A DNA stretch of 64,000 nt from a bacterium. GTDB lineage: Bacteria; Patescibacteriota; UBA1384; VFKW01. Positions 5,211 to 47,323 of this stretch are shown here, in pieces. The notes below the pieces were generated by a model. That model was given only the letters and a program-made list of their open reading frames with translations. It had not been told where the DNA came from and did not search any database. The stretch covers positions 113,117 through 177,116 of the forward strand of contig JAUSIS010000013.1 in NCBI GenBank assembly GCA_030647355.1, read 5' to 3'. How positions within the stretch are numbered: the first letter of the stretch is position 1; each line of letters begins with the position of its first letter. Made by a program: the position numbers and the translations under genes.

Positions 5211-6668
5211 ATGTCACTAAGCGCGCCTTTGGATAAAATAATTCCACTAACTGACGCTCGAGATAATTTCTCAAAAATAGTTTCCGAAATAGAGAAAACT
5301 ACTGAAGGCATGTATGTCCTAACCAAAGGCGGCAAACCGTCCGTAGCTATTATCAATATTAATTATTTAGAACGCTTAACCGGCGGTCCATTAATCAAGC
5401 CAAGCGAAGAAAATGAGCAAACAGCTGACGAAGCCGATACCCCAAGCGATGAATCATCCAAACTGGCAAAATTTGACGATAAGTCAGCAGATAAACAAAA
5501 CGATACCAAACAAGACGACGATATTAAAAAAACTCCGACCGGTTTCATAAAACCCGCAATACCCAATACTCCATCATTTACCCCCCCGCCTGCTATAAAA
5601 CCCATCATTCCCATTACCCCCTCTAGCCCTCCAGCCACCCCAACTCCCTCTCCGTCAACTTCCACACCCTCTACACCAAAACCTCCCACACTGGCGCCAC
5701 CCCAACCGCCAATTATAAAACCGGCACCATTTACCCCTCAAGCACCATTCAAACCAACCACCCCCCCGCCTGCCGTCCCATCTCCAAGTACCAATAATCC
5801 TCCGGCACCTACCCCTAAACCACAAGTCAACAACCTCGCTTCCAGTATGAAAACCCCGCCGGCGATCGCCGCTGTTCAAGCGCAGACCCAAACTCCCCCT
5901 GCTCCATCGCCAACCCCGCCCCCGCCAAAAATAAATCCTACCTGGTTAAATCCGGCGCCTCCCACTCCGCCAGCTCCGCCAACCAACCAAACCCCTCCTG
6001 CACAACCGGCCAGCCAACCAATATCGCCGACCGCCGTCTCGACACCCCCCCTGCCGACACCCAAGAATAATACACCAACCCCTGTAACCGCCAATCCAAG
6101 TGGAGCACCTACCCAATCTCCGTCCGCCCCAGGTATACCCCAACCACAACCAACACCTTTTAACGTTCCGAACCAGACACCACCCGCAGCGCCAAAAATA
6201 AATCCTACTTGGCTAAATCCAGCAGCGCCTACCCCTCCCGCTAACCAACCAGCCAGTATGCCGCCAACCCCCCCACCCGCCGCTTCTATCCCAACCAATC
6301 CAACACCACCCATTACCAACCAACCTCCACAACAACCTGCAAAACCCTACAGCCCGCAATTTAACTCCGGAAGCGGTGCTGCTCGAACATTAAGTGTCAA
6401 CCAACCAACTACTGCTCCGACCCCTAACACACCAACCCCGACATCCCCAGTTGCAACAGTCCCCGCCCAAACACCTCCCACCCAAGCTCCCCAAAACCCG
6501 CCAATATCCCCTCCCCCCATCACAAATACGGTTGCCATGACACCCCCGACAACTCCAACTCAACCAGCTACTCCAGCACCCTCTAATCCCACACCCCCCC
6601 AAACTCCACCGATACCTCCCCCGCCTGCTCCTCCTGCAGCCAATTCAGTATCAGATATGGAAATATAG
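5211..6668 (+). CDS. Phd/YefM antitoxin-like N-terminal domain fused to a ~400-aa Pro/Thr-rich low-complexity tail
   Basis: N-terminus LTDARDNFSKIVSEIEKTTEGMYVLTKGGKPSVAIININYLERL matches the YefM/Phd fold. The remainder is P/T/A-rich with an internal repeat, (P/A)PKINPTWLNPA(P/A)PTPPA, present twice. Confidence 0.55.
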   Translation: MSLSAPLDKIIPLTDARDNFSKIVSEIEKTTEGMYVLTKGGKPSVAIININYLERLTGGPLIKPSEENEQTADEADTPSDESSKLAKFDDKSADKQNDTKQDDDIKKTPTGFIKPAIPNTPSFTPPPAIKPIIPITPSSPPATPTPSPSTSTPSTPKPPTLAPPQPPIIKPAPFTPQAPFKPTTPPPAVPSPSTNNPPAPTPKPQVNNLASSMKTPPAIAAVQAQTQTPPAPSPTPPPPKINPTWLNPAPPTPPAPPTNQTPPAQPASQPISPTAVSTPPLPTPKNNTPTPVTANPSGAPTQSPSAPGIPQPQPTPFNVPNQTPPAAPKINPTWLNPAAPTPPANQPASMPPTPPPAASIPTNPTPPITNQPPQQPAKPYSPQFNSGSGAARTLSVNQPTTAPTPNTPTPTSPVATVPAQTPPTQAPQNPPISPPPITNTVAMTPPTTPTQPATPAPSNPTPPQTPPIPPPPAPPAANSVSDMEI

Positions 6669-8518: not shown

Positions 8519-8623
8519 ATCTTAACATTATTAAAAAGCAATTCCAACAAATTACTCTACACCACAATCTTTCTTGCAGCATAGATTAATATGTCGTACA
8601 ATCTATATATACAAGGAGGATTC

Positions 8624-9577
8624 ATGGATCTCAATTCAGCTATTAGGCAATTTCTTGAATATTGCGAGCTCGAAAAAGGACATTCGCCTTTGACAATCAG
8701 GAATTACTCACAATACCTGGAGCGCTTCCATGCATGGGCAAACTTACAGAATATATCAAAACTAGAAGAAATCACTCAGGACACTATAAGGCAATACCGG
8801 CTGTATTTAAATCGAATCCAAGATGAAAACGGCAACAATCTAAAAAAAATCACCATCAATTATCATCTTATAGCCCTGCGCTCGTTTCTGAAATTTATCA
8901 GTAAAAAAGATTTGGCTCAAACTCTGCAAGCAGAAAAAATTGAACTTGCCGATACCGATGAAAGACAAATCAGCTTTCTTAGTCCGGAAGAAGTTGAAAC
9001 ATTGTTAAATCAACCTAATCAAAGCTCAATAATCGGCTTGCGGGATAAAGCAATCCTGGAAACCCTATATTCAACCGGCTTGCGCGTCAGCGAATTAGTC
9101 AATCTTAAACGCGATCAAATCAACATCGAAAAAGGAGAATTTGCAGTCCTTGGTAAGGGCGGCAAGGTTAGAGTTGTCTTCCTTTCCGATCGAGCAAAGA
9201 TTTGTCTTAAGCAATTCCTCGCTAGGCGTAGCGACACTGACGACTATGTCTTTATTCGTTTTGGACGTAAGAAAAACCCGGCATTGCAAATAGGAACTGA
9301 AGAATTAAAACTAACCTCGCGTACAATTCAGAGAATTATCCATCATTATGCAGTAAAAGCGGGCATCATAAAGCCGGTTACACCTCATGTCCTGCGCCAT
9401 AGCTTTGCCACCGACCTACTTTCCAACGGTGCCGACCTTCGTAGCGTCCAAACTCTTCTCGGTCACTCTTCTGTCACCACAACCCAAATCTACACTCACG
9501 TGACAGACCCCCAATTAAAAGAAATTCATAAGCAATTCCACGGCAAAACACTAAAGACACCTCTGGAAAAGAATTAA
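8624..9577 (+). CDS. Tyrosine recombinase XerC/XerD family
   Basis: LRVSEL, HVLRHSFAT and LLGHSSVTTTQIYTHV catalytic-region motifs. RTIQRIIHHYAVKAGI is XerD-like. AAGGAGGA RBS before ATG at 8624. Confidence 0.8.
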   Translation: MDLNSAIRQFLEYCELEKGHSPLTIRNYSQYLERFHAWANLQNISKLEEITQDTIRQYRLYLNRIQDENGNNLKKITINYHLIALRSFLKFISKKDLAQTLQAEKIELADTDERQISFLSPEEVETLLNQPNQSSIIGLRDKAILETLYSTGLRVSELVNLKRDQINIEKGEFAVLGKGGKVRVVFLSDRAKICLKQFLARRSDTDDYVFIRFGRKKNPALQIGTEELKLTSRTIQRIIHHYAVKAGIIKPVTPHVLRHSFATDLLSNGADLRSVQTLLGHSSVTTTQIYTHVTDPQLKEIHKQFHGKTLKTPLEKN

Positions 9578-34262: not shown

Positions 34263-34898
34263 GTGAAGAAATACGAACTGACAACTATTACTCTGAAAGA
34301 AGACGAAGCAGACAAAGTCGCGTCTCTCATTCAAGAGCTTGGTGGAAAAATCGAAGATAGAAAAGATCTCGGCAATCGCCGGTTTGCTTATCCAATTAAC
34401 AAAGAAGCGAGCGGCATCTACACTGCATTTACCTTTTCTCTCGACGAACAAAAAATAACCGAACTCAACAAAAAACTAACCGGCAACTCTGATATCATAA
34501 GACACTTGATTATCATTACCAAAGAAATTAAGAAAGAATTCATCTCCAAGCTTTCTGAAGAGCTATCGAAAAAAACTGCCGAAAAGACAGGGGAAGAAGC
34601 TTTGGTTTCTGGTCCAGTTGAAAAAGAAGAGAAGCCGGAAGAGACCAAAGAAGCCAAAACTGAAAAAGAAAAACCCGCTGTAATATCAAAAGCAAAAGAA
34701 CCGGAGCTAAAAAAACCAGAAGAAAAGCAACCAGAAGCCGAAACTGAAAAAGTCGAGCTAAAAGAAGCAACAACAGAGGAAAAACAAGAAGAAAAACCAA
34801 CAGAAAAACCAAAAACCAAAGAACCTGAAGCCAAGAGTGAAGAGGAAGAGCGCCTCAAAAAGCTCAATGAGAAATTGGACGAACTACTTAAGGACTAA
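34263..34898 (+). CDS. rpsF: 30S ribosomal protein S6 with long acidic/lysine-rich C-terminal extension
   Basis: MKKYELTTI...GNRRFAYPI S6 core. GTG start. In the rpsF-ssb-rpsR arrangement. Confidence 0.85.
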   Translation: MKKYELTTITLKEDEADKVASLIQELGGKIEDRKDLGNRRFAYPINKEASGIYTAFTFSLDEQKITELNKKLTGNSDIIRHLIIITKEIKKEFISKLSEELSKKTAEKTGEEALVSGPVEKEEKPEETKEAKTEKEKPAVISKAKEPELKKPEEKQPEAETEKVELKEATTEEKQEEKPTEKPKTKEPEAKSEEEERLKKLNEKLDELLKD

Positions 34899-36722: not shown

Positions 36723-39700
36723 CTATTCCTCCGCCGGCACTTCCACCACCGACGTGATCGTACCCGTCGGTAGGTAAGACACGATAAACGCCCGGGAAAT
36801 CCCTCCGTAGTAACCAGTAACTTTCATTTTATTCAATGACTGGGTGTAGGCAATAAGGTTAAGGTAAAAAACCGCATTCCGCACATAGTCTAAAGTCCCT
36901 GGATGATATTGTCGTATAAATTGCTGTGTTGCTAAGTTATTGGGAGTTGCATACCAAACAGTCCATGGAGGTGACGGGGGCTTGTAATAGTGGAATTCTT
37001 GTTCCCAATATTTATTAAACGGGCTGGCAAGGTCGTCTATATCTATTGTAATCTCAACTAAATCATCGATTAGCGCATTTCCAAATCCCCTCTTAATTGC
37101 CAGCCCATTGAGCCATTCTTTCCAATAATCACCGTCTCCCCAAGTACTTGAATCATCAGGATCGTATCCCGGCGGTACGCCTTTGGAGAAAGCACTATTC
37201 ATCAAATCTAAATATTCGATCTGGCTGGATAGGCCGGATGCGCCAGCCAACGAACGGGATGAAATAAACAGAAATCCTCCTTTATCATCCACGCTGGCTA
37301 CCGCCATATTGGCCAGATCGCAAACCTGCCGGGCATTCCCGTCATGGTCTGTTCTGGTTTCGACCTTTTCATTATCCTCATTGTAGTAAGGAAGCTTTCT
37401 TAGCTTCCATCCCGGCTTACTTTGACATGGATAAGTTGCCAGTACATCAAATTTTAGTCCTAAATCGGTAATAGCATAAGCATTTAGACCGTAACCCATA
37501 TAACCACCCGTAACATATCCGGGTTCGCCTATCTTTAACACATCCCTCAATCGGGCGCTATTTAAACGAAAAATTGGATACAAACCGTTCCGGTCATAAA
37601 GACTGGCAAAAATCGGATGAGAAAATTCTACTGATGATCCATCTGTATTGCCCGGACTATTAGACCAGACGTCAAAGCCGTATTCGTTTGGAGGTGGGCT
37701 TCCTATCGGGGGTATATCCGCCAAATCTACTTTGGGATTCTGATCGGACCGTTCATAAGCATAACTGTAATCACCGCTATAAAAAAGCAGATTACCGGCG
37801 GTCTGATCGATGCTAATCGACTGGCTGCCGCTTGTAGAAATCGGCCGGTCTAACCCAAGTTTATCGTCAGGATTATTTTTGAAAAGTTCCCAAGTCTGCT
37901 GGGTTCCGTCAGTTTTAGCGTTAAGTTTCCATAAGAAATTCTTATTCGAAAGACTCGCCCCCGAGGAGCTTCCTCCCCACAGGTAAAGAAAATCTTCTCC
38001 TGCTATAGAGGCATAGTTTAAAGATCCGGCAGTTCTCGTCCTTGGCTTCTTGCTTGGATCAGTATCAACTTTCGGATCAGAATCTACTTTGACATATCTC
38101 CAGTCAACTCTCCAGTTATCAGGTAGTCCGGCTAATTGAGAAACTTCACCTACCCACGAAATAAATGATTGATCCGAAGTGTCTGTATTCAAAACAAACA
38201 TCTTATTACTGCCATTAGAAGTAAACAGATCGCCAGACGTCAAACTATAGGAGGGTTGATACCGCAGTAGTATCCTATGATCATTGTCAGCAATACTCTC
38301 AATATTATCAACAGTCGCAATAAACAGCTTGTTATTTCCGCTGATAATCGGCCCTAATGTTATCTGCTTGCCAGCATACAAACCCCTTGCTTGAGAATCG
38401 TCAAGCTGTAAAGTTGCAGGAGCATCGGTAATCAAGTCTTTAGTGATTGATGTGCTTAAAACCTCGCTGTTATAACTGCCTAAATTTACACTAAACATGG
38501 TTAATCCGTTATTTGCCAAAACCTCGCTGGTTCCACCAAGTATTAAATTATTTTCAAACTCAATTTTTTGACATCCTCGAGATCCAGGCGGATTAGTCGA
38601 AAAACAGCTAGCATCATAAAATATTTTTTTAACAGTACCCTTCATTCTCTGATTTTGCGTTCCTTGATCATCAACCGGACCAACAAGGTACTCCATTCCC
38701 AACGCAATCCCCCTTATGGTGCCTTGAGCTACTTTCAATACTTTAACTGTATCGTTCGGCACGGAGTTATTCATCCTCCCTTCGGGCACTAAAACAGCCT
38801 CATTCTGAATACTGCCTCCCAAGTGGTACATATTAAAATTAACGTTGCTGGATACGCCCTTGGGTTTCAGAAAATGCCAGGTCGGGCTCGCAGTAGTTAC
38901 GCCGGTTAATCTCCATGATGGCTTTTGAATTTTCATGTGGCTGTATCCGCCGAATACATACAAAGTATCCTCGGAAAAAACATAATAGCCCTGCGGATTA
39001 GACATATAATTCGGGCCCTCATAGAGCTGCCTGATGGATTTAACGGGTTGACCGGCTATCACCCCGACTTCGCTAACCCTCCCCCAGTAAACCTCATCAT
39101 AACTATCGGTTTGCTCTAAGTTTGGACTGTTTCCATAATAAGTGGCGACATCTCCCGGCGCCAAGCACCTGTTGCCATTACCCAAAGGATTAGCGCTATT
39201 CGTCATCTCGTCGCAACCCGGAGTTACGGTTGTTGCATTCGATAATTGAAGGGTTAATCTCCTTGTATCCGCAACTGACTCTGTATTCCTGCCCGCCAAT
39301 GGCTGGTCAAAGTGCAATTGATATCTGTAGGTTCCAAATCCAACGTCAGTACCGTCTGGAAACCTGGTAATTTTCGAAATCTTCCCCTTTAAATCAACAT
39401 ATTCAGTATCCCCGCCCGAACCATCTTTGGGCCCGTAAACTCGTATAATATCTCCCACCGTTAATCCGTCCGGATATACCTCATCGCCCACAGCGCCATG
39501 AGGAGCATATACGCTCGAGCGCATACTTAAAGTCACTTCATGTATTTCATTAGCTGGCAGCGTCGTTTTGGGCGTGATATTCGGCTCAATCCAATAATCG
39601 GTCGTTGGATTTACGGCCGAAGAACTGTTGATTGATTTATGCGAAAACACTTCTTGGAGGTAATCTCCGTCAGCTAGTACATCTATAACCGGACGGTCTA

Positions 39701-42113
39701 TAACCAGATTCCACTGGGGACTGGCAATAGTCGGATCGATTCTCCAGACATCCGCTGTGCTTCCGATGCTTGTCATGCCTGAATCCCCTACATTTCCAAG
39801 GTTGCCGCCTGCAACTACCAAATTCTTATTGTCTCTGCTGTAACTAACCAGCGCCTCGCTTCTTGGCAACGGACGGTTAATATTTGTGTTAGCAGGCTTA
39901 ATCAGTTTCCATGTTTGAGGTATGCCTCCGCTCAAACTTAGCTCCCAAAGATCATTCTTCTTATTCACGCCCATATTGAATATTATTGCTGTAAGCGGGT
40001 TATCATCCGAATCATCTGCCGGACGTAGATCCCTGTTTAGATATGTTTCATTAGCTGCCATATTGCCGTTTAGCGCGCGATTAGAAATATCTTTGCCGCC
40101 ATACAAGTACGCTATGTTCTCTGACTCGTCATAAACCATTCCGTGTCCTGACCTGGGAGTCGGGCCGAAATTTAAATCCACATGCATAGTCCCCGCTGCC
40201 CCCGGACCATAATCAATGCTGTTTACTCTGCCCCACAATGGCTCCAGATTGATATCGTCTGGCTCTAGCTGAACTATTGAACCGATCGTATAACCGCTTA
40301 TATTAGCAACCGGAACGGGTTGGTTCGCTCCTGGCAAAATCTCTACCGCAGTCCCTCCGCTCCAAATACTTTTTATTTTACTGATGTCATAGTTCCCGTT
40401 TAAATCGTATTTATTATATTCTTTTTGACCGGTAATAGTTTTAGGAAGTACATATACAGAATAGCCGTGACTCTGAAAATATTCATCATACTGAAAATTC
40501 ACAAAATTGACTCCATATCCGAAATTCATCCTATCGCCTTCCAGCGTCCCGCCAAAATCAAACTTATCAGGAATGAATATCAACGGCTTGGTTGTCAATC
40601 CGGTTCCGTCAATTATATGGATAATATCTGCCTTACCGCATACTTCGCGTGCTCCTCCGTTGTGAACTGGTTGAGAGAAATAGAGCGAATCCGGATCCAC
40701 CGTGAAAAAATTTCCGGCCGTATCGATGCTCGTAATAACCCCATCAACTGTAATGTTGAAATTATAAAAATTGCTCTTCCAATATTCCTGTCCGGTCGTA
40801 TACAGCGGATCAGGCCAAGGGTGACTATCCAATTGCAAATAATAATTATACTTAGCCATGACCTTGAGAAATGCCACTCTATCGCCAATTCCGAAAGACG
40901 ATGCTTGTCCGTATTTTAAGTAAACTTTGGTGTCCGGACCCATAAACGCCGTATCCAAAGATTTTGCGATGTTAACATCGTAAGCCAGTTCGCTTGCCGG
41001 AAAAGTCAGAACGGTTGGGGTTGTTTTCTTATAAAGCTGCCGTACATAATAATCCCCGCTAATTTTTTGAGTACTCCCGTTAGCGACAACAGATGCTTTC
41101 TCCCAATTAATTACATTCGAGGGAGTATTATCCGACGGATTGTAGGCATTCTTCATTACCCATAAATCATTACGCTTTCCTCCAGACAAATTCAGCTCGT
41201 CATTGATGATAGCTTTAGTATTGGGATCCATATTCTTTTCAATCGGTCCCCACTTAAATTGATAATTAGTGTCACCAATAAAAGGAGGGTTGATAATACC
41301 TTCGGTCGGATTAGGTAAATCGCTGTTGGCATCTATCATCAGCTTTCCCCCGACGCGATCCACATTCCCTGTTATCCAGTCTTCCAAATTAGTTCTCTCT
41401 TGGCCATCGAGTACCAGACTGTCTTCCGGCAAAGATAAAATCAAAAGATCGTATTTCAAATAGCCCGGATTACTGAACAGACCGGAATATTTCACCCCGC
41501 CAGTATTAGTCACGCCAACATTCCCTTGATCCAGCGGTCCGCCCATTAAAACCTGCCAGTATTCAATCTTGTTTTTCGCATAAACCTTGCCTGTAGAAGG
41601 GTCAATCGGTGCAAGGGGATTCACAAAATCCTTAAATCCGTTATCTTTCAATATAGTACTGCTAGACATTGCCGATCCAATCGTAGTAAAGATATCATTG
41701 GGCTGGACGTAACTTCCTGCAGCTGCATCCCACGCTGAAATTACTGCGACATTGGTGCACCTGGAAATTGTTTTTATTTTTTCTTCCGGAGTAAACGAGT
41801 AATATTTGATATATGGCGCTTTCTTGGAATCTGTTGAAGCTTGGTTTCCAGTGTCAAAGTTTATTAGCATTGTCTGATCAAAAGACGGGTCACCGGCCAA
41901 TTTTTTGCTTAAATCAGAAACTCCTGCCAGCGCCGCTTCCCTCGCCACTCTCGCGTCATTATAAGAAGCCGCATTGCCGATTATGGAGTAACTGTTTATC
42001 GCCGCTCCTAAGGTCGCCGCCGTCATCAAAGTAACAATAAGCAAAGTAAGAACCAATACAGTCCCCTGCTTTTTGAGACCTGTACAATTAAATTTTATTT
42101 TGCCTAAAGCCAT
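36723..42113 (-). CDS. Giant (1796 aa) T4P-associated surface protein: PilX_N-like N-terminal prepilin-type helix plus Kelch/beta-propeller-like repeats (PilY1-like tip adhesin candidate)
   Basis: N-terminus KKQGTVLVLTLLIVTLMTAATLGAAINS resembles the PilX_N hydrophobic helix. Multiple Kelch-like segments (for example SGHGMVYDESENIAYLYGGKD). Last gene of the minus-strand prepilin/pilC cluster. Confidence 0.65.
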   Translation of the reverse strand: MALGKIKFNCTGLKKQGTVLVLTLLIVTLMTAATLGAAINSYSIIGNAASYNDARVAREAALAGVSDLSKKLAGDPSFDQTMLINFDTGNQASTDSKKAPYIKYYSFTPEEKIKTISRCTNVAVISAWDAAAGSYVQPNDIFTTIGSAMSSSTILKDNGFKDFVNPLAPIDPSTGKVYAKNKIEYWQVLMGGPLDQGNVGVTNTGGVKYSGLFSNPGYLKYDLLILSLPEDSLVLDGQERTNLEDWITGNVDRVGGKLMIDANSDLPNPTEGIINPPFIGDTNYQFKWGPIEKNMDPNTKAIINDELNLSGGKRNDLWVMKNAYNPSDNTPSNVINWEKASVVANGSTQKISGDYYVRQLYKKTTPTVLTFPASELAYDVNIAKSLDTAFMGPDTKVYLKYGQASSFGIGDRVAFLKVMAKYNYYLQLDSHPWPDPLYTTGQEYWKSNFYNFNITVDGVITSIDTAGNFFTVDPDSLYFSQPVHNGGAREVCGKADIIHIIDGTGLTTKPLIFIPDKFDFGGTLEGDRMNFGYGVNFVNFQYDEYFQSHGYSVYVLPKTITGQKEYNKYDLNGNYDISKIKSIWSGGTAVEILPGANQPVPVANISGYTIGSIVQLEPDDINLEPLWGRVNSIDYGPGAAGTMHVDLNFGPTPRSGHGMVYDESENIAYLYGGKDISNRALNGNMAANETYLNRDLRPADDSDDNPLTAIIFNMGVNKKNDLWELSLSGGIPQTWKLIKPANTNINRPLPRSEALVSYSRDNKNLVVAGGNLGNVGDSGMTSIGSTADVWRIDPTIASPQWNLVIDRPVIDVLADGDYLQEVFSHKSINSSSAVNPTTDYWIEPNITPKTTLPANEIHEVTLSMRSSVYAPHGAVGDEVYPDGLTVGDIIRVYGPKDGSGGDTEYVDLKGKISKITRFPDGTDVGFGTYRYQLHFDQPLAGRNTESVADTRRLTLQLSNATTVTPGCDEMTNSANPLGNGNRCLAPGDVATYYGNSPNLEQTDSYDEVYWGRVSEVGVIAGQPVKSIRQLYEGPNYMSNPQGYYVFSEDTLYVFGGYSHMKIQKPSWRLTGVTTASPTWHFLKPKGVSSNVNFNMYHLGGSIQNEAVLVPEGRMNNSVPNDTVKVLKVAQGTIRGIALGMEYLVGPVDDQGTQNQRMKGTVKKIFYDASCFSTNPPGSRGCQKIEFENNLILGGTSEVLANNGLTMFSVNLGSYNSEVLSTSITKDLITDAPATLQLDDSQARGLYAGKQITLGPIISGNNKLFIATVDNIESIADNDHRILLRYQPSYSLTSGDLFTSNGSNKMFVLNTDTSDQSFISWVGEVSQLAGLPDNWRVDWRYVKVDSDPKVDTDPSKKPRTRTAGSLNYASIAGEDFLYLWGGSSSGASLSNKNFLWKLNAKTDGTQQTWELFKNNPDDKLGLDRPISTSGSQSISIDQTAGNLLFYSGDYSYAYERSDQNPKVDLADIPPIGSPPPNEYGFDVWSNSPGNTDGSSVEFSHPIFASLYDRNGLYPIFRLNSARLRDVLKIGEPGYVTGGYMGYGLNAYAITDLGLKFDVLATYPCQSKPGWKLRKLPYYNEDNEKVETRTDHDGNARQVCDLANMAVASVDDKGGFLFISSRSLAGASGLSSQIEYLDLMNSAFSKGVPPGYDPDDSSTWGDGDYWKEWLNGLAIKRGFGNALIDDLVEITIDIDDLASPFNKYWEQEFHYYKPPSPPWTVWYATPNNLATQQFIRQYHPGTLDYVRNAVFYLNLIAYTQSLNKMKVTGYYGGISRAFIVSYLPTGTITSVVEVPAEE

Positions 42114-42124
42114 AACCTCTCCTG

Positions 42125-42778
42125 TCAGATTTCTTCAATATTACTGATATTGCTTGCAATAAAACGCAGTTCAATCTTACTTGGACGCGCCAGCACACTC
42201 AAGAGCTTGGAATTACCCGAATTAAAGTTGCCAAGTTTGCTGTATCGTGCTTCTTCCATAGACATCTCTACCTTAATTGCAAACTTATCATTCGGAGGAA
42301 CAGCGTCCGCACCAGTATAGACAGGAATAAAACGTAGCTTCCGTAAAAATACTTTATCCGAACTAATAATCTGCTTATGTAAGACTCCGGGGGCAGTACT
42401 TTTTTCCACCGTCATTTCAATGCTCCTACTGTTAACCGTCGGATTGATTGTCTCGATAATTGTTGTATTGCCGTCAATATCCAATCGGGTTATTTTAATC
42501 GTATCGCAAAAAACTGAAACCCCTTTACAATTCACCACATCTACTGGCTTAACGATCACTACATTGCTAGCGCTCTGCACCTCACGGTTGATGAACTCGC
42601 CGACAAATCTCGTTTCATCTTGCACTTCCCTCATTCCCTCGACTCTATCGCGCATTCTGGCACTCATAATAACCGAACCGGCTGACATCAACATGGCAAT
42701 AGTAAAAATTACTACGGAAACCAGTATCTCAATCAGTGTAAATCCGTTTCTCTCATTCAATTTCACAGCTTTTATCAT
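42125..42778 (-). CDS. Type IV pilus minor pilin (prepilin-type N-terminal cleavage/methylation domain)
   Basis: NGFTLIEILVSVVIF class III signal peptide. Confidence 0.7.
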   Translation of the reverse strand: MIKAVKLNERNGFTLIEILVSVVIFTIAMLMSAGSVIMSARMRDRVEGMREVQDETRFVGEFINREVQSASNVVIVKPVDVVNCKGVSVFCDTIKITRLDIDGNTTIIETINPTVNSRSIEMTVEKSTAPGVLHKQIISSDKVFLRKLRFIPVYTGADAVPPNDKFAIKVEMSMEEARYSKLGNFNSGNSKLLSVLARPSKIELRFIASNISNIEEI

Positions 42779-43242
42779 ATATTCCTCTTAATTACTGCAA
42801 GAGTCTCAATATAATTTTTTTTGGCTAATTCTGCGGCATCACATTTTGACTTGCTCACTGCCTCCGGCCCAAAGCAAACACCAACTTTGATTTTGGCATA
42901 ATCCGAATCGCTGAAAGCATCCTCCACTGTTATAATTCGGTAATATCTTCCGCCGTAGAGATAAACCTTCCCATCACTGGCGTCATCGGTTACAGCTAAA
43001 TCTTCACTTAAAAACTTTGTCCCGTTACCCGGAAAAGAAACCGACCCTTGATAATTCAAAATTTTCAAAACTTCCACCCCTTCTGTCGCTAGATAATACG
43101 CCTGCGTCTGTACTGCCGCCCGGTCAGCCAGACGAAATGAATTAAAATGCAAAGAAAGCGATGCTGATCCTACAGTTACAACCAGTAAAACGCTAATCAG
43201 CACCTCAATTAACCCAAAACCGTATTTATTCAGTCTCCCCAT
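42775..43242 (-). CDS. Type IV pilus minor pilin (PilV-like prepilin)
   Basis: YGFGLIEVLISVLLV prepilin N-terminus. Confidence 0.7.
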   Translation of the reverse strand: MGRLNKYGFGLIEVLISVLLVVTVGSASLSLHFNSFRLADRAAVQTQAYYLATEGVEVLKILNYQGSVSFPGNGTKFLSEDLAVTDDASDGKVYLYGGRYYRIITVEDAFSDSDYAKIKVGVCFGPEAVSKSKCDAAELAKKNYIETLAVIKRNI

Positions 43243-43252
43243 AAAATATCTC

Positions 43253-44617
43253 CTAATACAATAATTCCAAAACCGGAGCCGGTCTCACAGCTACAGACGA
43301 ATCACCGCCAGTCCCTCCACCTTCATCCTCGATACTAACCGATCCCTCTGAATCGTACTTTTCCTTGCTCAAAAACTCGACACTATCCCCTGAAGTTAAA
43401 TAGAAAACTAGCGGTAGATCATAATCAATCGATCCTGTTCCATTCCACCATGCTTTGTGCCTGGCTAAGTTAAACTCGATTGAATAACGGGTATTCTTTT
43501 CCACGTCTACTAACTCCCCTACTTCACTGCGATTTGCCCCTGCCTCCGCATAGATATGGCAGTCGCTAAACGTAGGACTAGACTCGCTGCAATTCCCCTC
43601 CAAGTCTGAATCCGGCTTAAGCATATAAATATCTACCAAACTGCCTGCTGTAACAATATCGCCTGTAGTCAGCCATAATCTGGCCCGTTTTGGAAATTTG
43701 TTCGGCTCGCTCGGGTCAGTTAAGCTGGCCCAATCGAACATGACAAATGATTGGTTGCCGTCATTAACTCTCAATATATTTCCAATCCAATCCCCTCCCC
43801 CTGCATCCCAATACGAGTCTTGCATAATCAACGATTCAGCGCTTGAATTATCGGGGAAAACCGCCATATCTGTTGACTCGCTGGCTTCTCTCGATATCCA
43901 AACCTGCCCGCTGTATTTGTTAATATTGACATACATAAATTCCGTATCCGAACTCGTTGTATTTTTTATCTTTTCATATCTGATATTTTTCAATTTCACT
44001 CTAAAGGTGTTTTCCTGTTTCGTTGAGTCCCATAATTCCGCGTTCTGCGAATCAACACTCTTCGTACCCCCGCAGGTAATGTCAAAATTTGCTAAAGTAA
44101 ACCGGACACCGGTTCTGGTTATTTTTTTCGATGTGTCGCCGTCAACCGGAATCAATTCCTCAGTGCCTGCTTTAATTGATTCTAAGAGCTTTTCCGGCGA
44201 AAATCCGTCAATCATAATACCGTCCGAAAAATCGATTGATTTGATTAATGTGGACGATAATTGATTGCTTCGATTATCACATGCCGTTACAATTCCCTGA
44301 ATTTCCACCGGTGAATTCGTCACAACTGCGTTTGAACCTGATGTCGTCTTAACTTGCTCATTCTTTTTTGTTATCCCGTTAATAAACTTGATCTCGAAAG
44401 CGGTAAAATTACTCCGACCGACATTCCCCCCCCGTGGAGCAATGGCATCGGTCCGCGCCTCGATCACTGCCTGCCTTATCGTCTCCGCCGCAGTCGTCAG
44501 ACTGCTTCGTTCTTGAATTCCGTTAACTTGAGGCATAGCTAAAGCCGTCAAAATTACAATGACGCCAATTACTACAATTAACTCAATTAAAGTGTATCCT
44601 TTTTTTAATGATTTAAT
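43253..44617 (-). CDS. Large type IV pilin-like protein (~455 aa); start codon uncertain (no in-frame ATG upstream of the prepilin motif)
   Basis: KKGYTLIELIVVIGVIVILTALAMPQ prepilin motif. The only plausible initiation is a non-ATG codon (ATT at 44615-44617) 5 nt after an AAAGGAGA RBS. The in-frame stretch upstream back to 44713 is probably not translated. Confidence 0.55.
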   Translation of the reverse strand: MKSLKKGYTLIELIVVIGVIVILTALAMPQVNGIQERSSLTTAAETIRQAVIEARTDAIAPRGGNVGRSNFTAFEIKFINGITKKNEQVKTTSGSNAVVTNSPVEIQGIVTACDNRSNQLSSTLIKSIDFSDGIMIDGFSPEKLLESIKAGTEELIPVDGDTSKKITRTGVRFTLANFDITCGGTKSVDSQNAELWDSTKQENTFRVKLKNIRYEKIKNTTSSDTEFMYVNINKYSGQVWISREASESTDMAVFPDNSSAESLIMQDSYWDAGGGDWIGNILRVNDGNQSFVMFDWASLTDPSEPNKFPKRARLWLTTGDIVTAGSLVDIYMLKPDSDLEGNCSESSPTFSDCHIYAEAGANRSEVGELVDVEKNTRYSIEFNLARHKAWWNGTGSIDYDLPLVFYLTSGDSVEFLSKEKYDSEGSVSIEDEGGGTGGDSSVAVRPAPVLELLY

Positions 44618-44785
44618 CCCATCTCCTTTTATATTTAAATGTATGTGATATCCTTCGAGCCCCACCGGCCAGCAGAGTCGAGAAGCTCGGTTCTCCACAA
44701 GCCAGAACAGCATCCTTCCCTGTCATTGCGAGCGCATTTCTGTCATTGCGAGCGTAGCGTGGCAATCTTTCTCTTTCCCAACTTC

Positions 44786-44840
44786 CTTCTTACTTCTTAC
44801 TGCTTACCAGCTTATCGCTTATTACTTACTGCTTAACTAG
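44786..44840 (-). repeat. Heptanucleotide tandem repeat (GTAAGNA)n in 5' leader of large pilin gene
   Basis: Plus strand reads CTTACTTCTTACTGCTTACCAGCTTATCGCTTATTACTTACTGCTTAA, about 7 units of NGCTTAC. Related repeat at 53227-53268. Confidence 0.5.
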
Positions 44841-44843
44841 CCC

Positions 44844-45461
44844 CTATTCCATAAGGCAAGGTGTGCAAATTTTGGTAATATCAAACTCGAAAATCCAATC
44901 TGGAGGCACTTCAGGATATACGCTAACCGTTCCATCTGTTCGAATACTCTTATCGGTCCCCTTTTCATATCTGTTAGAATCACTGCCGGCTCCTGTTGTA
45001 TCCGTCGTTAAATCATTATCATTCGAGTTCTCTAGTTGAGCCGAAATCTCAAAATTCAAACCATCTTCCGACGGTCGGTATCTGTATGCATATCCTGTCT
45101 TTGAATCCTGCACATAGGTATCGGCATAACCGTCCTTGATCATCCCATTAACATTACCGCCATCACCCTTCATAAGTTTCTCGTAGCCGCCTTGCTCGCC
45201 GTCATAATAGCAAGGGAAATTAACTTTCAAAGCAGGTAATGTTTTCTCGCAAGGCAGAGGGTAAGTCTTTTTATCGGCATAATATAAAGTCAAATACCCC
45301 TGTATTTTCGCCAAATCACTTTTCCTTTTAGCATCTCTGGATCTCAACCTCACTGCGCTCGTGCCAACCAGCGAAATTACCATTAAAATTGAAATGATGG
45401 AAATAACTACCAACAATTCTATCAGAGTAAAAGCTGAAATCCTTTCCCTTTTAATTTTCAT
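44844..45461 (-). CDS. Type IV pilin (major pilin candidate)
   Basis: ISAFTLIELLVVISIISIL prepilin leader and N-terminal helix. 205 aa. Confidence 0.75.
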   Translation of the reverse strand: MKIKRERISAFTLIELLVVISIISILMVISLVGTSAVRLRSRDAKRKSDLAKIQGYLTLYYADKKTYPLPCEKTLPALKVNFPCYYDGEQGGYEKLMKGDGGNVNGMIKDGYADTYVQDSKTGYAYRYRPSEDGLNFEISAQLENSNDNDLTTDTTGAGSDSNRYEKGTDKSIRTDGTVSVYPEVPPDWIFEFDITKICTPCLME

Positions 45462-45470
45462 AATGCCTCC

Positions 45471-46664
45471 TTAAAAAGCATTAACCAAGCTATATATCGG
45501 ACCTAAAATACTAATGACCACAAATCCAACACCGCCGCCCAGTACAATAAAGATAAACGGTTCCAAAAGTGATGTAAATGTCTTTAATTTATTATCCACT
45601 TCTTCCTCATAATACTCGGCAAGAGTATCGCACATTCCCGAAAGATCACCAGTCTGCTGACCGACATAGAGCAACTGGCTCATAAGCGGTGGGAAATATT
45701 TACTTTTCTTCAGTACCGAGCTTATCGGCAAACCCTGCTCCAGCGATTTAGATATACTCAATACCAGATCTATGTAAATCGTATTTGTCGTAATAGTCGC
45801 CAATATATTCACCGACTCGATAATCGGCACTCCAGCCAGAAGCAGCAAGGAAAAAGTCCGATTAAAACGAGCATAAAAAACTTCCCTAACAAGAGTCCCA
45901 AACACCGGAAAATTTATGCTTATAACACTTTTAGTCTTTTTGCCAGTGTTACTAATCATAAATACTTTATATCCGGCCACCAAAAATATTATACCCATAA
46001 TAATCAAATACCAATACTGAGTCATAAACCTGCTCAACGCAATCAAAATTTGAGTTTGTATAGGCAAAGCCAGATTTTGCTCCTCAAAAATCTGACTAAT
46101 AGAAGGAATGACCTTAGTCATCACAATAAAAATGACAGCTATCATCACACACACGATTACAATCGGATAAACCATAGCCCCACGGATTTTAGCAGTAAAA
46201 GAAGCCGAAGTCGCCACTTCAGCCGATAACTCGTTAAGAACAATTTCCATCTTACCCGTCGCCTCCCCGGCGCGCAGAACCCCGGTTTCTATACTGGGAA
46301 AAACTTGCGGATAATTTTCCATCATCCGTGATAATGGAAAACCATTCTGTAATCCAAGACTCATCTCCTCTAATACTCTTCCCAGCGATTTATTGGGTGT
46401 TTGCCTGGCAATCTCGATCGCTTGTGTAATAGAAACACCGGCTTTAAGCATTGTCGTTAACTGCCGATACAGCAAACTGCGATCTCTCGCCTTCACAGAA
46501 AAAGACAGAAATATGTCCTGCCATTTGGTTTTCTCAGTAATTGAGATTACTTTGAGTCCCCGTTTTTCCACATCTTTATGCACTTGTTCCATATCAGAAG
46601 AGGCAACCTTGCCGTTGACAATTTGCCCTTTGTCATCACTCGCCTTAAAAGTAAAGATTTTCAT
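45471..46664 (-). CDS. pilC: Type IV pilus assembly platform protein PilC (GspF family)
   Basis: Two GspF-type repeats each with three TM segments, including the QLLYVGQQTGDL...L motif region. Confidence 0.85.
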   Translation of the reverse strand: MKIFTFKASDDKGQIVNGKVASSDMEQVHKDVEKRGLKVISITEKTKWQDIFLSFSVKARDRSLLYRQLTTMLKAGVSITQAIEIARQTPNKSLGRVLEEMSLGLQNGFPLSRMMENYPQVFPSIETGVLRAGEATGKMEIVLNELSAEVATSASFTAKIRGAMVYPIVIVCVMIAVIFIVMTKVIPSISQIFEEQNLALPIQTQILIALSRFMTQYWYLIIMGIIFLVAGYKVFMISNTGKKTKSVISINFPVFGTLVREVFYARFNRTFSLLLLAGVPIIESVNILATITTNTIYIDLVLSISKSLEQGLPISSVLKKSKYFPPLMSQLLYVGQQTGDLSGMCDTLAEYYEEEVDNKLKTFTSLLEPFIFIVLGGGVGFVVISILGPIYSLVNAF

Positions 46665-46822
46665 TCCCCTCCCGAATTTAACCCAAAACTGTGAGACCGC
46701 TAATTCTATAAACTTATCATATCAAACTACTAAATTACGTCAAGCTGGTTTAACCTTGCAGTATATTACACAGGATAGAAGCCGATTGATCTTGCTAAAT
46801 AAATTCGGTATATTATTCTTGT

Positions 46823-47323
46823 ATGCTAATACTTGCAACCAAATTATTTCGCGCGCCGATCGTCACTCCTTCGGCAGGGAAACTGGGCGAACTCGGCAAT
46901 CCCATAGTCAATCCGTCCGATGCACACCTTTTGGCCTTTCATGTTCTGCCCAGCACTCTTTTCGGCCGAAAAAAAATAATTTCCATAACGGATATCATCG
47001 TCTTGGATCCAAAAATCGTCTTAATCAATAGCCCCGAAAGCATCATAGATTCCCAAGAAATCATCCGAGTCAAGGAGTCCGCCGATCAACAGATCTCCCT
47101 GCTCAAAACTAAAGCATATACCAAGAGTAAAGTATATCTGGGACGAGTTGAAGACATAGTGATAGATAGCGAGACCAATATGATAATAAAATATTATATT
47201 AAACATATAATTCAGAGCCGGATACTGCCCGCCGATAAAGTCGTTGAAACTAAACATAATAAAATAATATTTGACGATACAGTAATTGCCCCTAATGTCG
47301 AAGTTAAGGGTGTGCCAGCTTAG
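46823..47323 (+). CDS. Hypothetical protein, possible PRC-barrel-like domains
   Basis: Two repeats of a G..V.D.V.D....I....I pattern (KLGELGNPIVNPSD..., YLGRVEDIVIDSETNMII). Weak assignment. Confidence 0.3.
   Translation: MLILATKLFRAPIVTPSAGKLGELGNPIVNPSDAHLLAFHVLPSTLFGRKKIISITDIIVLDPKIVLINSPESIIDSQEIIRVKESADQQISLLKTKAYTKSKVYLGRVEDIVIDSETNMIIKYYIKHIIQSRILPADKVVETKHNKIIFDDTVIAPNVEVKGVPA

What the first reader, a model, noticed from the sequence alone, without database searches (positions are those of the whole stretch)
36723..46664. Type IV pilus locus ending in a 1796-aa PilX-N-like/Kelch-repeat giant protein: candidate pilus-tip adhesin
Co-directional genes on the minus strand are pilC, a 205-aa pilin, a ~455-aa pilin-like protein, two minor pilins (GFTLIE/GFGLIE leaders) and finally a 5.4-kb gene. 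The giant gene has a short N-terminal segment resembling the PilX_N pseudopilin helix (KKQGTVLVLTLLIVTLMTAATLGA), and the rest is a large extracellular region with multiple Kelch/beta-propeller-like repeats. This architecture resembles PilY1-type tip adhesins but is far larger. For an organism likely living attached to other cells, such a protein is a prime candidate for host or partner recognition.
Basis: partly seen in the sequence, partly recalled or inferred. Interest (0 to 1): 0.65.

Follow-up and report, generated by a model that had tools for sequence, protein, structure and literature searches.

The report
Giant GspK/PilX-like pilus tip protein
A candidate-phyla-radiation bacterium has a six-gene type IV pilus cassette whose last gene encodes a 1796-residue protein with a pilin-type N-terminus and a Kelch propeller, making it a plausible pilus-tip adhesin; this kind of protein already has experimental precedent in Saccharibacteria.

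Summary
Six tightly packed minus-strand genes (36723-46664) encode PilC, a GspG-like pilin, three further prepilins with G|F/YxLIE leaders, and a 1796-aa protein.

The rest of the protein contains four to five Kelch blades spread over 820 residues, at least four copies of a ~50-aa repeat module, and a possible GATase1-like domain.

About 17 related giants (1470-1840 aa) exist in 15 billion proteins. All eight loci examined have the giant as the last gene of the same cassette. One relative comes from a Berkelbacteria MAG.

Best reading: a modular GspK/PilX-position minor pilin that caps the pilus and binds a partner-cell ligand. It is not a PilY1 homologue. The closest precedent is TM7x PilX2. 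Tip location and adhesion are inferred, not shown. No pilB, pilT, pilM or pilD lies in the window.

The parts
46716..46743 (-). Best sigma-70-like promoter match of the region (TTGACG-16-TATGAT with TG), 52 nt upstream of pilC
   Evidence: It scores 10 of 12 and is the only site with an extended -10. This is a consensus match only. The number of sites in the region (35) is not clearly above the shuffled expectation (26.5 +/- 5.1).
45471..46664 (-). pilC/gspF platform protein (397 aa)
   Evidence: Pfam T2SSF E 7e-51 with two stretches. NCBIfam GspF 2.5e-86 and PilC 1e-76, below the equivalog cut-offs.
44844..45461 (-). GspG-like pilin (205 aa), candidate major pilin. Leader MKIKRERISA|FTLIE, with Ala rather than Gly at -1
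   Evidence: N_methyl E 5e-6. The positional family matches E. coli GspG at hhalign E 2.3e-12, probability 97.7 %.
43253..44713 (-). Large pilin-like protein. It is 486 aa from the first ATG, and more likely 454 aa from an ATT at 44617 that follows an AAAGGAG Shine-Dalgarno sequence. Prepilin motif KKG|YTLIE
   Evidence: N_methyl at aa 37-60, E 7e-5. DNA read. The positional family is GspG/GspH-like (2.7e-8 and 4e-5). Orthologues of 231-546 aa sit at the same position in relatives.
42775..43242 (-). GspI/PilV-like minor pilin (155 aa), leader YG|FGLIE
   Evidence: TIGR02523 PilV E 8e-6. The positional family matches GspI best, E 1.1e-5.
42125..42778 (-). Minor pilin (217 aa), leader NG|FTLIE. 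Its class is ambiguous (GspH, G, I or J). It overlaps the previous gene by 4 nt
   Evidence: N_methyl E 1.9e-7. NCBIfam ComGF 2.5e-4 and GspJ 9e-4. hhalign E 2e-6 to 2e-5 against GspH, G, I and J.
36723..42113 (-). Giant gene (1796 aa): a GspK/PilX-class modular pilin-like protein
   Evidence: About 17 full-length homologues of 1470-1840 aa.
41709..42113 (-). Giant aa 1-135, the pilin-like module. It has a basic leader ending in Gly17, a hydrophobic segment without Glu+5 (G|TVLVLT), a continuous helix predicted for aa 16-73, and then beta strands
41094..41558 (-). Giant aa ~186-340: conserved alpha/beta region (MGGPLDQ, YDLLILSLP, LEDWI..GGKLMID), tentatively a non-catalytic GATase1/ThuA/DUF4159-like domain. 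Boundaries are approximate
40176..40328 (-). Giant aa 596-646: reference copy of a ~50-aa repeat module (GD.V......WG.V..I), probably a small beta module
   Evidence: hhalign self-comparison of the family profile.
39696..40175 (-). Giant aa 647-806: Kelch blades 1 and 2. Blade 1 carries an insert of about 40 aa
   Evidence: Pfam Kelch hits at aa 650-683. Blade profile E 3e-6 and self-match.
39315..39494 (-). Giant aa 874-933: repeat module copy
   Evidence: hhalign E 6.8e-5.
39030..39182 (-). Giant aa 978-1028: repeat module copy
   Evidence: hhalign E 2.5e-5.
38859..39026 (-). Giant aa 1030-1085: Kelch blade 3
   Evidence: hhalign E 6e-5 and 4e-5 to blades 2 and 4.
38598..38738 (-). Giant aa 1126-1172: repeat module copy. 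A weaker fifth copy lies at aa 1235-1282
   Evidence: hhalign E 1.1e-4, and E 0.078 for the fifth copy.
37710..38057 (-). Giant aa 1353-1468: Kelch blade 4 and a weaker blade 5
   Evidence: Pfam Beta-prop_ATRN-LZTR1 and Kelch_2 at aa 1368-1450. hhalign E 1.4e-7 for blade 4 and 0.009 for blade 5.
36726..36881 (-). Giant aa 1745-1796: strongly conserved C-terminal helix plus three strands (NAVFYLNLIAY...KVTGYYGGISRAFIVSY...EVPAEE). It may complete the pilin module
   Evidence: Invariant V1765 and G1767, and nearly invariant Y1768, Y1769, G1771 and R1774, across 15 sequences. AF2 strands with pLDDT about 75. Only a weak match to the C-terminus of the small PilX-like pilins, E 0.006.

Best explanation
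The locus is a type IV filament pilin cassette in the canonical order F-G-(H)-I-(J)-K: pilC, a GspG-like major pilin, three canonical minor prepilins, and a giant protein that occupies the GspK/PilX position.

Proposed mechanism:
1. All five pilin-like proteins insert into the membrane through their N-terminal hydrophobic helix.
2. A prepilin peptidase, encoded elsewhere, cleaves after the conserved Gly (Ala in the 205-aa pilin).
3. The giant's pilin module (aa ~18-135, perhaps completed by the conserved C-terminal hairpin) joins the small minor pilins to form the priming complex on PilC.
4. Because the giant lacks Glu+5, as GspK and PilX do, it can only be the top-most subunit.
5. Polymerisation of the 205-aa pilin beneath the complex pushes it outward, so the ectodomain of about 1,660 residues (very roughly 190 kDa) caps the filament.
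6. That ectodomain consists of a possible GATase1-like domain and one Kelch propeller whose blades are separated by at least four repeat modules and by poorly conserved stretches. It binds a ligand, most likely a glycan or surface protein, on a partner cell.
7. Retraction then pulls the cells together.

Shown here: gene order, prepilin motifs, homology of the N-terminal module to PilX_N/GspK-type pilins, Kelch blades and repeats, conserved ends with a divergent middle, and strict synteny across relatives.

Inferred: cleavage, incorporation into the pilus, tip position, ligand binding, and the epibiotic life style.
For: The E. coli gspF-G-H-I-J-K order is confirmed.

Reciprocal specificity within the cassette:
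- Gene 2 matches GspG (E 2e-12) and gene 4 matches GspI (E 1e-5).
- None of genes 2-5 matches GspK (E 0.07-0.27).
- The giant's N-terminus matches GspK best (E 2-4e-4), against 0.3-0.45 for GspG, H and J.

Family-level support for the N-terminal module:
- NCBIfam GspK hits 9 of 17 family N-termini, best E 2.5e-6. Verru_Chthon cassette protein A hits 4 of 17.
- A profile search of 5.8e9 proteins returns small CPR proteins, some carrying PF14341 or named PilX.
- hhalign between that small family and the giant family gives probability 95.8 %, E 6.8e-9.
- Those small genes lie near the end of the run of minor-pilin genes in pilB-pilT-pilC-pilin-pilD operons.

Sequence and structure features:
- Gly(-1) is kept in 14 of 15 members, Thr+6 is invariant, and there is no Glu+5.
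- AF2 predicts a 58-residue N-terminal helix followed by strands.
- The ends are conserved (42-50 % identity) and the middle is divergent (15-30 %).

Synteny holds in 8 of 8 loci, with a 4-nt overlap with the preceding gene in three distant relatives.

Precedent: TM7x PilX2, a minor pilin with a non-canonical signal and a beta-propeller, is needed for host binding (PMC12206443). Modular pilins are widespread, and GspK and ComZ carry domains inserted into the pilin sheet (PMC8179133).
Against: - On this single sequence the PilX_N and GspK matches are not significant. No curated family threshold is reached.
- The C-terminal hairpin matches the small pilins only weakly (E 0.006) and does not match E. 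coli GspK.
- An SPase-I-type site (LGAA|I) after the hydrophobic segment cannot be excluded from sequence.
- No pilB, pilT, pilM or pilD is in the 64-kb window, and none is called in the up to 10 kb shown on each side of the giant in relatives.
- An ectodomain of about 190 kDa is more than twice the size of the largest modular pilin listed in PMC8179133 (860 aa). It would have to cross the cell wall on a thin filament.
- No ligand, host or expression data exist.
Confidence: 0.6

Rival explanations
1. The giant is a membrane-anchored or wall-associated surface adhesin that is co-transcribed with the pilus genes but never incorporated into the filament. Its N-terminal helix would act as a signal-anchor or Sec signal. 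This would resemble the tapirins, adhesins encoded next to the T4P locus of Caldicellulosiruptor.
For: - No curated pilin model reaches threshold on the protein.
- It lacks Phe+1 and Glu+5.
- Its very large size argues against transport on a pilus tip.
- The tapirin HMM weakly hits 5 of 17 family N-termini (E 0.022).
- Giant membrane proteins have been proposed as host-recognition factors in another CPR bacterium (PMC8080830).
Against: - The N-terminal 120 residues are the best-conserved part of the protein.
- They are homologous to small PilX_N-type minor pilins that have no ectodomain at all.
- They resemble GspK specifically.
- Gly(-1) is conserved.
- The gene always holds the position after the other pilin genes and overlaps the preceding gene by 4 nt in three distant relatives.
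Confidence: 0.2
2. The giant is a true GspK/PilX-position tip subunit, but its ectodomain does not bind a partner cell. It could capture DNA for uptake (as proposed for Thermus ComZ), or act only as a priming or capping and length-control factor of a Com-like or pseudopilus filament.
For: - The F-G-H-I-J-K order is also the comG and T2SS order (and general knowledge).
- CPR type IV pili have been linked to competence (PMC6744442).
- ComZ is a large minor pilin with an inserted domain that is thought to bind DNA (cited in PMC8179133).
Against: - Kelch propellers and GATase1-like accessory domains are typically protein- or glycan-binding (general knowledge).
- Conserved ends with a divergent middle fit a diversifying receptor-binding surface.
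- In TM7x the T4P-2 mutants, including the pilX2 mutant, kept wild-type competence but lost host binding (PMC11623550, PMC12206443).
Confidence: 0.12
3. The ectodomain is an enzyme acting on a partner's envelope, for example a galactose-oxidase-type or glycan-modifying activity, delivered by the pilus rather than serving as a passive adhesin.
For: - Kelch_4 and Kelch_3 are the 'galactose oxidase central domain' families.
Against: - No catalytic domain family was detected.
- The GATase1-like hits come from a low-confidence model.
- No conserved Cys-His-Glu triad was identified. The invariant Cys119 lies in the pilin module.
Confidence: 0.05

Closest known systems
PilX2 (and PilX1) of Nanosynbacter lyticus TM7x, Saccharibacteria (PMC12206443, PMC11623550)
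   Same: - It is a minor pilin of a Patescibacteria type IV pilus.
- Its N-terminal signal is non-canonical and is not predicted to be cut by PilD.
- It carries a large extra domain that is a beta-propeller.
- It is encoded with the other minor pilins.
- It is proposed to be the tip adhesin. Experimentally, pilX2 deletion halves host binding.
   Different: - The PilX2 propeller is a seven-bladed RCC1 type appended at the C-terminus. Here the blades are Kelch type and interrupted by inserted modules, there is a further alpha/beta domain, and the C-terminal hairpin is conserved.
- The organism here belongs to a different lineage; one relative is a Berkelbacteria MAG.
GspK / XcpX (T2SS) and PilX (T4aP) tip minor pseudopilins
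   Same: - Last position in the G-H-I-J-K gene series.
- Gly(-1) with no Glu+5.
- Profile matches in register.
- GspK also has an extra domain inserted into the pilin fold (PMC8179133).
   Different: - GspK is about 330 aa with an alpha-helical insert; here about 1,650 residues of mostly beta structure lie between the conserved ends.
- Curated cut-offs are not reached (12.4 bits against 130 for NF037980).
- There is no T2SSK domain hit.
- CPR bacteria lack PilQ and appear not to have a Gram-negative envelope (PMC6744442), which argues against a T2SS role.
Small (107-132 aa) PilX_N-type minor pilins of other CPR bacteria, e.g. Azambacteria (P0021-P0059)
   Same: - They are homologous over the N-terminal ~120 residues (hhalign E 6.8e-9).
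- They share the G|xxLLLT and DS..A..AADSGV motifs.
- They lie near the end of the minor-pilin gene run.
   Different: They have no ectodomain. The giant is 13-17 times longer.
Modular type IV pilins (S. sanguinis PilB/PilC, ETEC CofB, Thermus ComZ; PMC8179133)
   Same: A pilin 'carrier' module is combined with an effector module or modules, giving a subunit that is only compatible with the filament tip and mediates adhesion.
   Different: - Those proteins carry a canonical class III signal (IPR012902).
- The largest one listed in that survey is 860 aa.
- This family would be missed by such a survey because it lacks the N_methyl motif.
PilY1 / PilC tip-associated adhesins
   Same: A functional analogy only: a large propeller-containing protein encoded after the minor pilin genes and thought to sit on the tip complex.
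   Different: - PilY1 is not a pilin; it has a Sec signal and docks on the minor pilins.
- Its C-terminal propeller family was not detected here.
- No vWA domain was detected.

Membership tests
GspK/PilX-class minor (pseudo)pilin (Pfam PF14341 PilX_N; NCBIfam NF037980 GspK) | Basic leader ending in Gly, followed by ~20 hydrophobic residues, without the Glu+5 of other pilins | tested here: met
   The giant reads ...LKKQG|TVLVLTLLIV. Gly is kept in 14 of 15 family members, Leu sits at +5, and Thr+6 is invariant. The four other pilins of the cassette all have Glu+5.
GspK/PilX-class minor (pseudo)pilin (Pfam PF14341 PilX_N; NCBIfam NF037980 GspK) | Score above the curated cut-off of the family model | tested here: not met
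   Pfam PilX_N gives no hit at E <= 10 on aa 1-120 and hits only 1 of 15 members at E 0.075. NF037980 scores 12.4 bits against a cut-off of 130 on this protein. The best family member reaches E 2.5e-6, and only the N-terminal 60 profile positions match.
GspK/PilX-class minor (pseudo)pilin (Pfam PF14341 PilX_N; NCBIfam NF037980 GspK) | Profile-level homology to proteins annotated as PilX_N or GspK, and specificity against other pilin classes | tested here: met
   One search returns hits that include PF14341-annotated and PilX-named proteins (E 2e-5 to 2e-2 on 5.8e9 sequences). One search gives hhalign probability 95.8 %, E 6.8e-9. rank GspK (2-4e-4) above GspI (4e-3) and well above GspG, H and J (0.3-0.45).
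GspK/PilX-class minor (pseudo)pilin (Pfam PF14341 PilX_N; NCBIfam NF037980 GspK) | Pilin fold: long alpha-1 helix packed on a beta sheet | tested here: inconclusive
GspK/PilX-class minor (pseudo)pilin (Pfam PF14341 PilX_N; NCBIfam NF037980 GspK) | Gene at the end of the minor pilin series downstream of gspF/pilC and the major pilin | tested here: met
   for the window, for the E. coli reference order, and for the same position in all seven relatives' loci.
GspK/PilX-class minor (pseudo)pilin (Pfam PF14341 PilX_N; NCBIfam NF037980 GspK) | Cleavage by prepilin peptidase and incorporation at the filament tip | not testable with these tools
   This needs proteomics or imaging. No prepilin peptidase gene lies in the window.
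Canonical type IV pilin (N_methyl / IPR012902, G|FxxxE) | N-terminal methylation motif with Phe+1 and Glu+5 | tested here: not met
   The giant has no N_methyl or TIGR02532 hit. Its +1 residue is Thr and its +5 residue is Leu.
PilY1 / PilC tip adhesin family | C-terminal PilY1/Neisseria PilC propeller domain, a Sec-type signal, and often a vWA domain | tested here: not met
   The Pfam scan at E <= 0.1 lists only Kelch-type families for the giant and for all 15 members. No vWA domain was found, and the N-terminus is pilin-like.
Kelch beta-propeller | Repeated ~50-aa four-stranded blades with the GG doublet and conserved Trp | tested here: met
   Kelch families hit 15 of 15 members, best E 2.8e-17. 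Blades lie at aa 647-740, 744-806, 1030-1085 and 1353-1413 (E <= 1e-4), plus 1420-1468 (E 0.009). Foldseek top hits are KLHDC2, LZTR1, TYW4, MKLN1 and FBXO42 (E 1.6e-5 and weaker).
Kelch beta-propeller | A closed propeller of six or seven blades | tested here: inconclusive
   Only four to five blades are detectable by sequence. The model has mean pLDDT 48, and TM-scores to Kelch domains are only 0.27-0.28.
Complete type IVa pilus machinery | PilB and PilT ATPases, PilM/N/O, and PilD peptidase | tested here: not met
   None of the 40 largest ORFs of the window outside the cassette matches these families. None is called in the up to 10 kb shown on each side of the giant in relatives. The rest of the 241,868-bp contig could not be read, so absence from the genome is not shown.

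The most novel reading that the evidence does not exclude
The giant may be a 'split' GspK-type pilin. In this reading its pilin fold is completed by the invariant extreme C-terminal hairpin (..KVTGYYGG.sRafiV..). The whole stretch of about 1,600 residues between the pilin-like N-terminal region and that hairpin (the alpha/beta domain and a Kelch propeller that itself carries nested repeat inserts) would then be an insertion inside the pilin beta sheet. That would be by far the largest such insertion known, and it would form a cap of about 190 kDa on a pilus only a few nanometres thick. The divergent middle would then be the host-range determinant of a Berkelbacteria-related CPR clade in which this cassette is vertically conserved.
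Probability: 0.3. Interest if true: 0.6.

Novelty: new variant of a known kind. Interest (0 to 1): 0.45.

Why it matters
How CPR/Patescibacteria cells recognise partners is known experimentally only for a few Saccharibacteria, where a PilX-type minor pilin with a propeller contributes to host binding.

This family extends that design to another, uncultivated lineage. It is much larger and has a different architecture, which motif-based surveys of modular pilins would miss.

The protein has conserved ends and a divergent middle. That gives a concrete, expressible candidate for receptor-binding studies and for predicting host range from metagenomes.

It also raises a mechanical question: how can a tip subunit of about 190 kDa be assembled and moved through a cell wall?

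Tried and rejected
- **Direct Pfam and NCBIfam calls on the giant.** No PilX_N, GspK, PilY1 or vWA hit reached significance.
- **PDB sequence search with the N-terminal profile.** Only spurious poxvirus and BceB transmembrane matches came back.
- **Foldseek of the N+C chimera model against PDB.** Nothing significant; the top hits were flavodoxin-like at E ~0.5.
- **Pattern scan of JGI metagenome contigs.** No confirmed relatives. The GTDB representative genomes hold only one relative.
- **First MSA for the chimera.** It was built from separate N- and C-terminal fragments, which MAFFT misaligned, so it was discarded. Full-length homologues were used as rows instead.
- **Match of the C-terminal hairpin to E. 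coli GspK.** None found (E 0.45). The split-pilin idea therefore rests on weak evidence only.
- **PilY1-like reading.** Rejected for lack of any PilY1 domain and because the N-terminus is pilin-like.
- **Reading with several propellers.** Judged unlikely, because only four to five blades are detectable.
- **Strain-level variability.** It could not be assessed: the closest relative is about 41 % identical by MAFFT alignment (36 % by BLASTP), and every 90 % cluster looked up has one to three members.

Full report
**Observation.** The minus strand between 36723 and 46664 carries six co-directional ORFs of 397, 205, 486, 155, 217 and 1796 aa. The gaps between them are 9, 130, 10, -4 and 11 nt. The best promoter-like site of the region lies just upstream of the first gene, at 46743-46716.
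- The first product is PilC/GspF (T2SSF E 7e-51; GspF and PilC models at 1e-70 to 1e-86).
- The next four products carry the prepilin N_methyl motif, with leaders SA|FTLIE, KKG|YTLIE, YG|FGLIE and NG|FTLIE.
- For the third gene the motif starts at residue 37 of the ATG-initiated ORF.
- The 1796-aa ORF is real. It is identical to an NCBI MAG protein annotated 'hypothetical' on a 241,868-bp contig, and it has full-length homologues.

**What the giant protein is made of.** On the single sequence the databases say little. There are only sub-threshold Kelch hits (Kelch_4 just above its cut-off), no PilX_N, no PilY1 and no NCBIfam family.

An exhaustive HMMER search with the N-terminal 640 residues found the three close homologues plus P0005. 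It also found a distant subfamily of proteins of about 1500-1760 aa, including some truncated entries, that share only the first ~200 residues at sequence level. In total about 17 giants exist among 15 billion proteins, all in clusters of one to three sequences.

A 15-sequence alignment shows the same overall architecture. Both ends are conserved (42-50 % identity among close relatives in aa 1-300 and 1701-1796). The middle is divergent (15-30 %), with minima at aa 401-600 and 1101-1200.

Domain content:
- Kelch families hit all 15 members, best E 2.8e-17.
- Profile self-comparison places blades at aa 647-740, 744-806, 1030-1085 and 1353-1413, with a weaker one at 1420-1468.
- A ~50-aa module (GD.V...WG.V..I) recurs at aa 596-646, 874-933, 978-1028 and 1126-1172, and weakly at 1235-1282. 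It lies between the blades.
- An AF2 model of aa 396-1595 is all-beta but low confidence (pLDDT 48). Its best Foldseek hits are six-bladed Kelch propellers (KLHDC2, LZTR1, TYW4, MKLN1, FBXO42). Their alignments are stretched over 450-600 columns, which is what one propeller split by inserts would give.

I therefore read the 'multiple Kelch repeats' as one dispersed propeller. This is inference.

The segment ...KKQG|TVLVLTLLIVTLM... keeps Gly at -1 in 14 of 15 members. Thr at +6 is invariant and Glu never occurs at +5. All four other pilins of the cassette have Glu+5. The segment continues into a conserved amphipathic stretch (..YND..VA..AA.AGV..L).

Family-level tests are positive:
- The NCBIfam GspK model hits 9 of 17 N-termini (best E 2.5e-6; this protein E 0.082, in register). 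Verru_Chthon cassette protein A hits 4 of 17.
- The family profile searched against 5.8e9 proteins returns about 39 small (107-132 aa) CPR proteins at E 2e-5 to 2e-2. Several of these carry Pfam PilX_N, or are named PilX by JGI or 'PilX N-terminal domain-containing' by NCBI.
- hhalign between that small family and the giant family gives probability 95.8 %, E 6.8e-9, over residues 1-123.
- Against the five E. coli K-12 pseudopilins the profile prefers GspK (E 2-4e-4) over GspI (4e-3) and over GspG, H and J (0.3-0.45).
- AF2 on a chimera of aa 1-395 plus 1476-1796 predicts a single 58-residue helix (aa 16-73) followed by strands, with pLDDT 55-84 in that part.

Caveats: no curated threshold is met, the models are poor, and Foldseek on the chimera found nothing.

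**Cassette logic.** I built families for the four upstream pilins from eight loci and compared them with the E. coli pseudopilins.
- The 205-aa gene is GspG-like (E 2e-12).
- The 454-aa gene is GspG/GspH-like.
- The 155-aa gene is GspI-like (E 1e-5).
- The 217-aa gene is ambiguous (H, G, I or J).
- None of them is GspK-like (E 0.07-0.27).

The cassette therefore reproduces the F-G-H-I-J-K order, with the giant as its only K-type member. In other CPR genomes the small PilX-like homologue lies near the end of the minor-pilin run in pilB-pilT-pilC-pilin-pilD operons.

**Co-occurrence.** In every locus examined the giant is the last gene of pilC + pilin + three pilin-like genes. In three distant relatives it overlaps the preceding gene by 4 nt. 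The loci are the window, three close relatives, P0005, and three members of the distant subfamily at about 18 % identity. The flanks are also syntenic: a PRC-barrel gene upstream, and EF-P, S18, SSB and S6 downstream. One relative is a Candidatus Berkelbacteria MAG. The cassette thus looks vertically inherited in a CPR lineage.

The extreme C-terminus (NAVFY.N.IAY...KVTGYYGG..RAF.V...EVPAEE) is nearly invariant and is predicted as a helix plus three strands with pLDDT about 75. It resembles the C-terminal hairpin of the small PilX-like pilins (TIKSLGSYRTVKRQFEV), but only at E 0.006, and it does not match E. coli GspK. The idea that it completes the pilin sheet, making the rest an insertion as in GspK and ComZ (PMC8179133), is attractive but unproven.

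**Mechanism.** The best-supported reading is a modular minor pilin in the GspK/PilX position.
- It nucleates the filament with the other minor pilins.
- Lacking Glu+5, it sits on top and displays a Kelch-based binding platform at the pilus tip.
- Its divergent middle region would determine ligand specificity.

This matches the experimentally studied PilX2 of the saccharibacterium TM7x. PilX2 has a non-canonical signal and a seven-bladed propeller, and its deletion halves host binding and impairs competition (PMC12206443, PMC11623550). It also fits the general concept of modular pilins (PMC8179133), whose largest listed example is 860 aa.

Evidence against or missing:
- No ATPase, PilM or peptidase genes are in the window or in the flanks shown for relatives.
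- The cap would be very large, about 190 kDa.
- Cleavage type, localisation and ligand are all untested.

Rivals are a co-transcribed but non-pilus surface adhesin, a tip subunit with a non-adhesive role (DNA capture or priming), and an enzyme.

**Comparison and novelty.** The protein is not a PilY1 family member: no PilY1 domain was detected and it has a pilin-type N-terminus. It works like a GspK/PilX-class tip subunit and resembles one at profile and fold level, yet it fails the curated family thresholds. The kind of protein (CPR PilX-type pilin with a propeller adhesin) is already known. The Kelch, repeat and GATase1-like architecture, the size, and the conserved C-terminal hairpin make it a new variant. 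No paper in the searchable library combines Patescibacteria, Kelch and pilus.

**Verdict.** Interest is moderate.

Noticed in passing
window 9600-34200, compared with L005, L010 and L011: In three distant relatives the giant gene is followed directly by EF-P, (S18), SSB, S6, a XerC/D-type integrase, PAP2, M16 peptidase, NDK, GT4 and DnaE. In the window the integrase (8591-9577) and S6 (34263-34898) are separated by about 24 kb. That stretch carries a laccase-like gene, an acyltransferase, purD, an ABC transporter pair, TrmB, a radical-SAM/B12 protein, HAD, YchF and a PG_binding protein. GC reaches 0.53 at 14-20 kb against about 0.42 elsewhere. This could be an island inserted next to the recombinase, or a rearrangement.
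   Followed up: partly
window 44714-44843 (minus strand): The only sizeable gap in the cassette (130 nt, between the 205-aa pilin gene and the next gene) holds a direct repeat, GCGCTCGCAATGACAG, present twice. This could mark internal regulation that separates major-pilin expression from minor-pilin expression.
   Followed up: no
window 44615-44629 (minus strand): The second pilin-like gene probably starts at a non-canonical ATT (44617), 5 nt after AAAGGAG. That gives a 7-residue leader (M)KSLKKG|YTLIE, instead of the 39-residue leader implied by the upstream ATG at 44713.
   Followed up: partly
window 44844-45461: The GspG-like candidate major pilin has Ala rather than Gly at the -1 cleavage position (RISA|FTLIE). 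The L005 and L011 orthologues also have Ala, while L002, L003, L007 and L010 have Gly.
   Followed up: partly
window 46823-47323 (+): A 166-aa ORF is transcribed divergently from pilC. ORFs at the same position in relatives carry a PRC-barrel hit (mostly faint; unmarked in L011). It is conserved next to the cassette in L002, L005, L007 and L011. Any link to the pilus is unknown. The window ORF itself was not scanned.
   Followed up: partly
L012-L014 and proteins P0021-P0059: This is a tight family of 107-132-aa CPR minor pilins (G|IALLLT...DINDS..AIYAADSGVEW...FTIKSLGSYRTVKRQFEV). Most have no precomputed Pfam hit on record, and only five of about 39 carry PF14341 PilX_N. They lie in complete pilB-pilT-pilC-pilin-pilD operons. 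They are useful as the minimal version of the giant's pilin module.
   Followed up: partly
giant family N-termini (alignment A5): The NCBIfam 'tapirin' model (cellulose-binding proteins encoded next to the T4P locus of Caldicellulosiruptor) weakly hits 5 of 17 N-termini (E 0.022). Verru_Chthon cassette protein A hits 4 of 17 (E 4e-4). This hints that several large proteins encoded next to pilus loci share a GspK-type N-terminus.
   Followed up: no
window 5211-6668 (+): A 485-aa ORF has only a weak, sub-threshold Phd/YefM antitoxin match at its N-terminus (E 5e-6, 26.7 bits against a 29.8 cut-off). That is unusually long for an antitoxin-domain protein.
   Followed up: no
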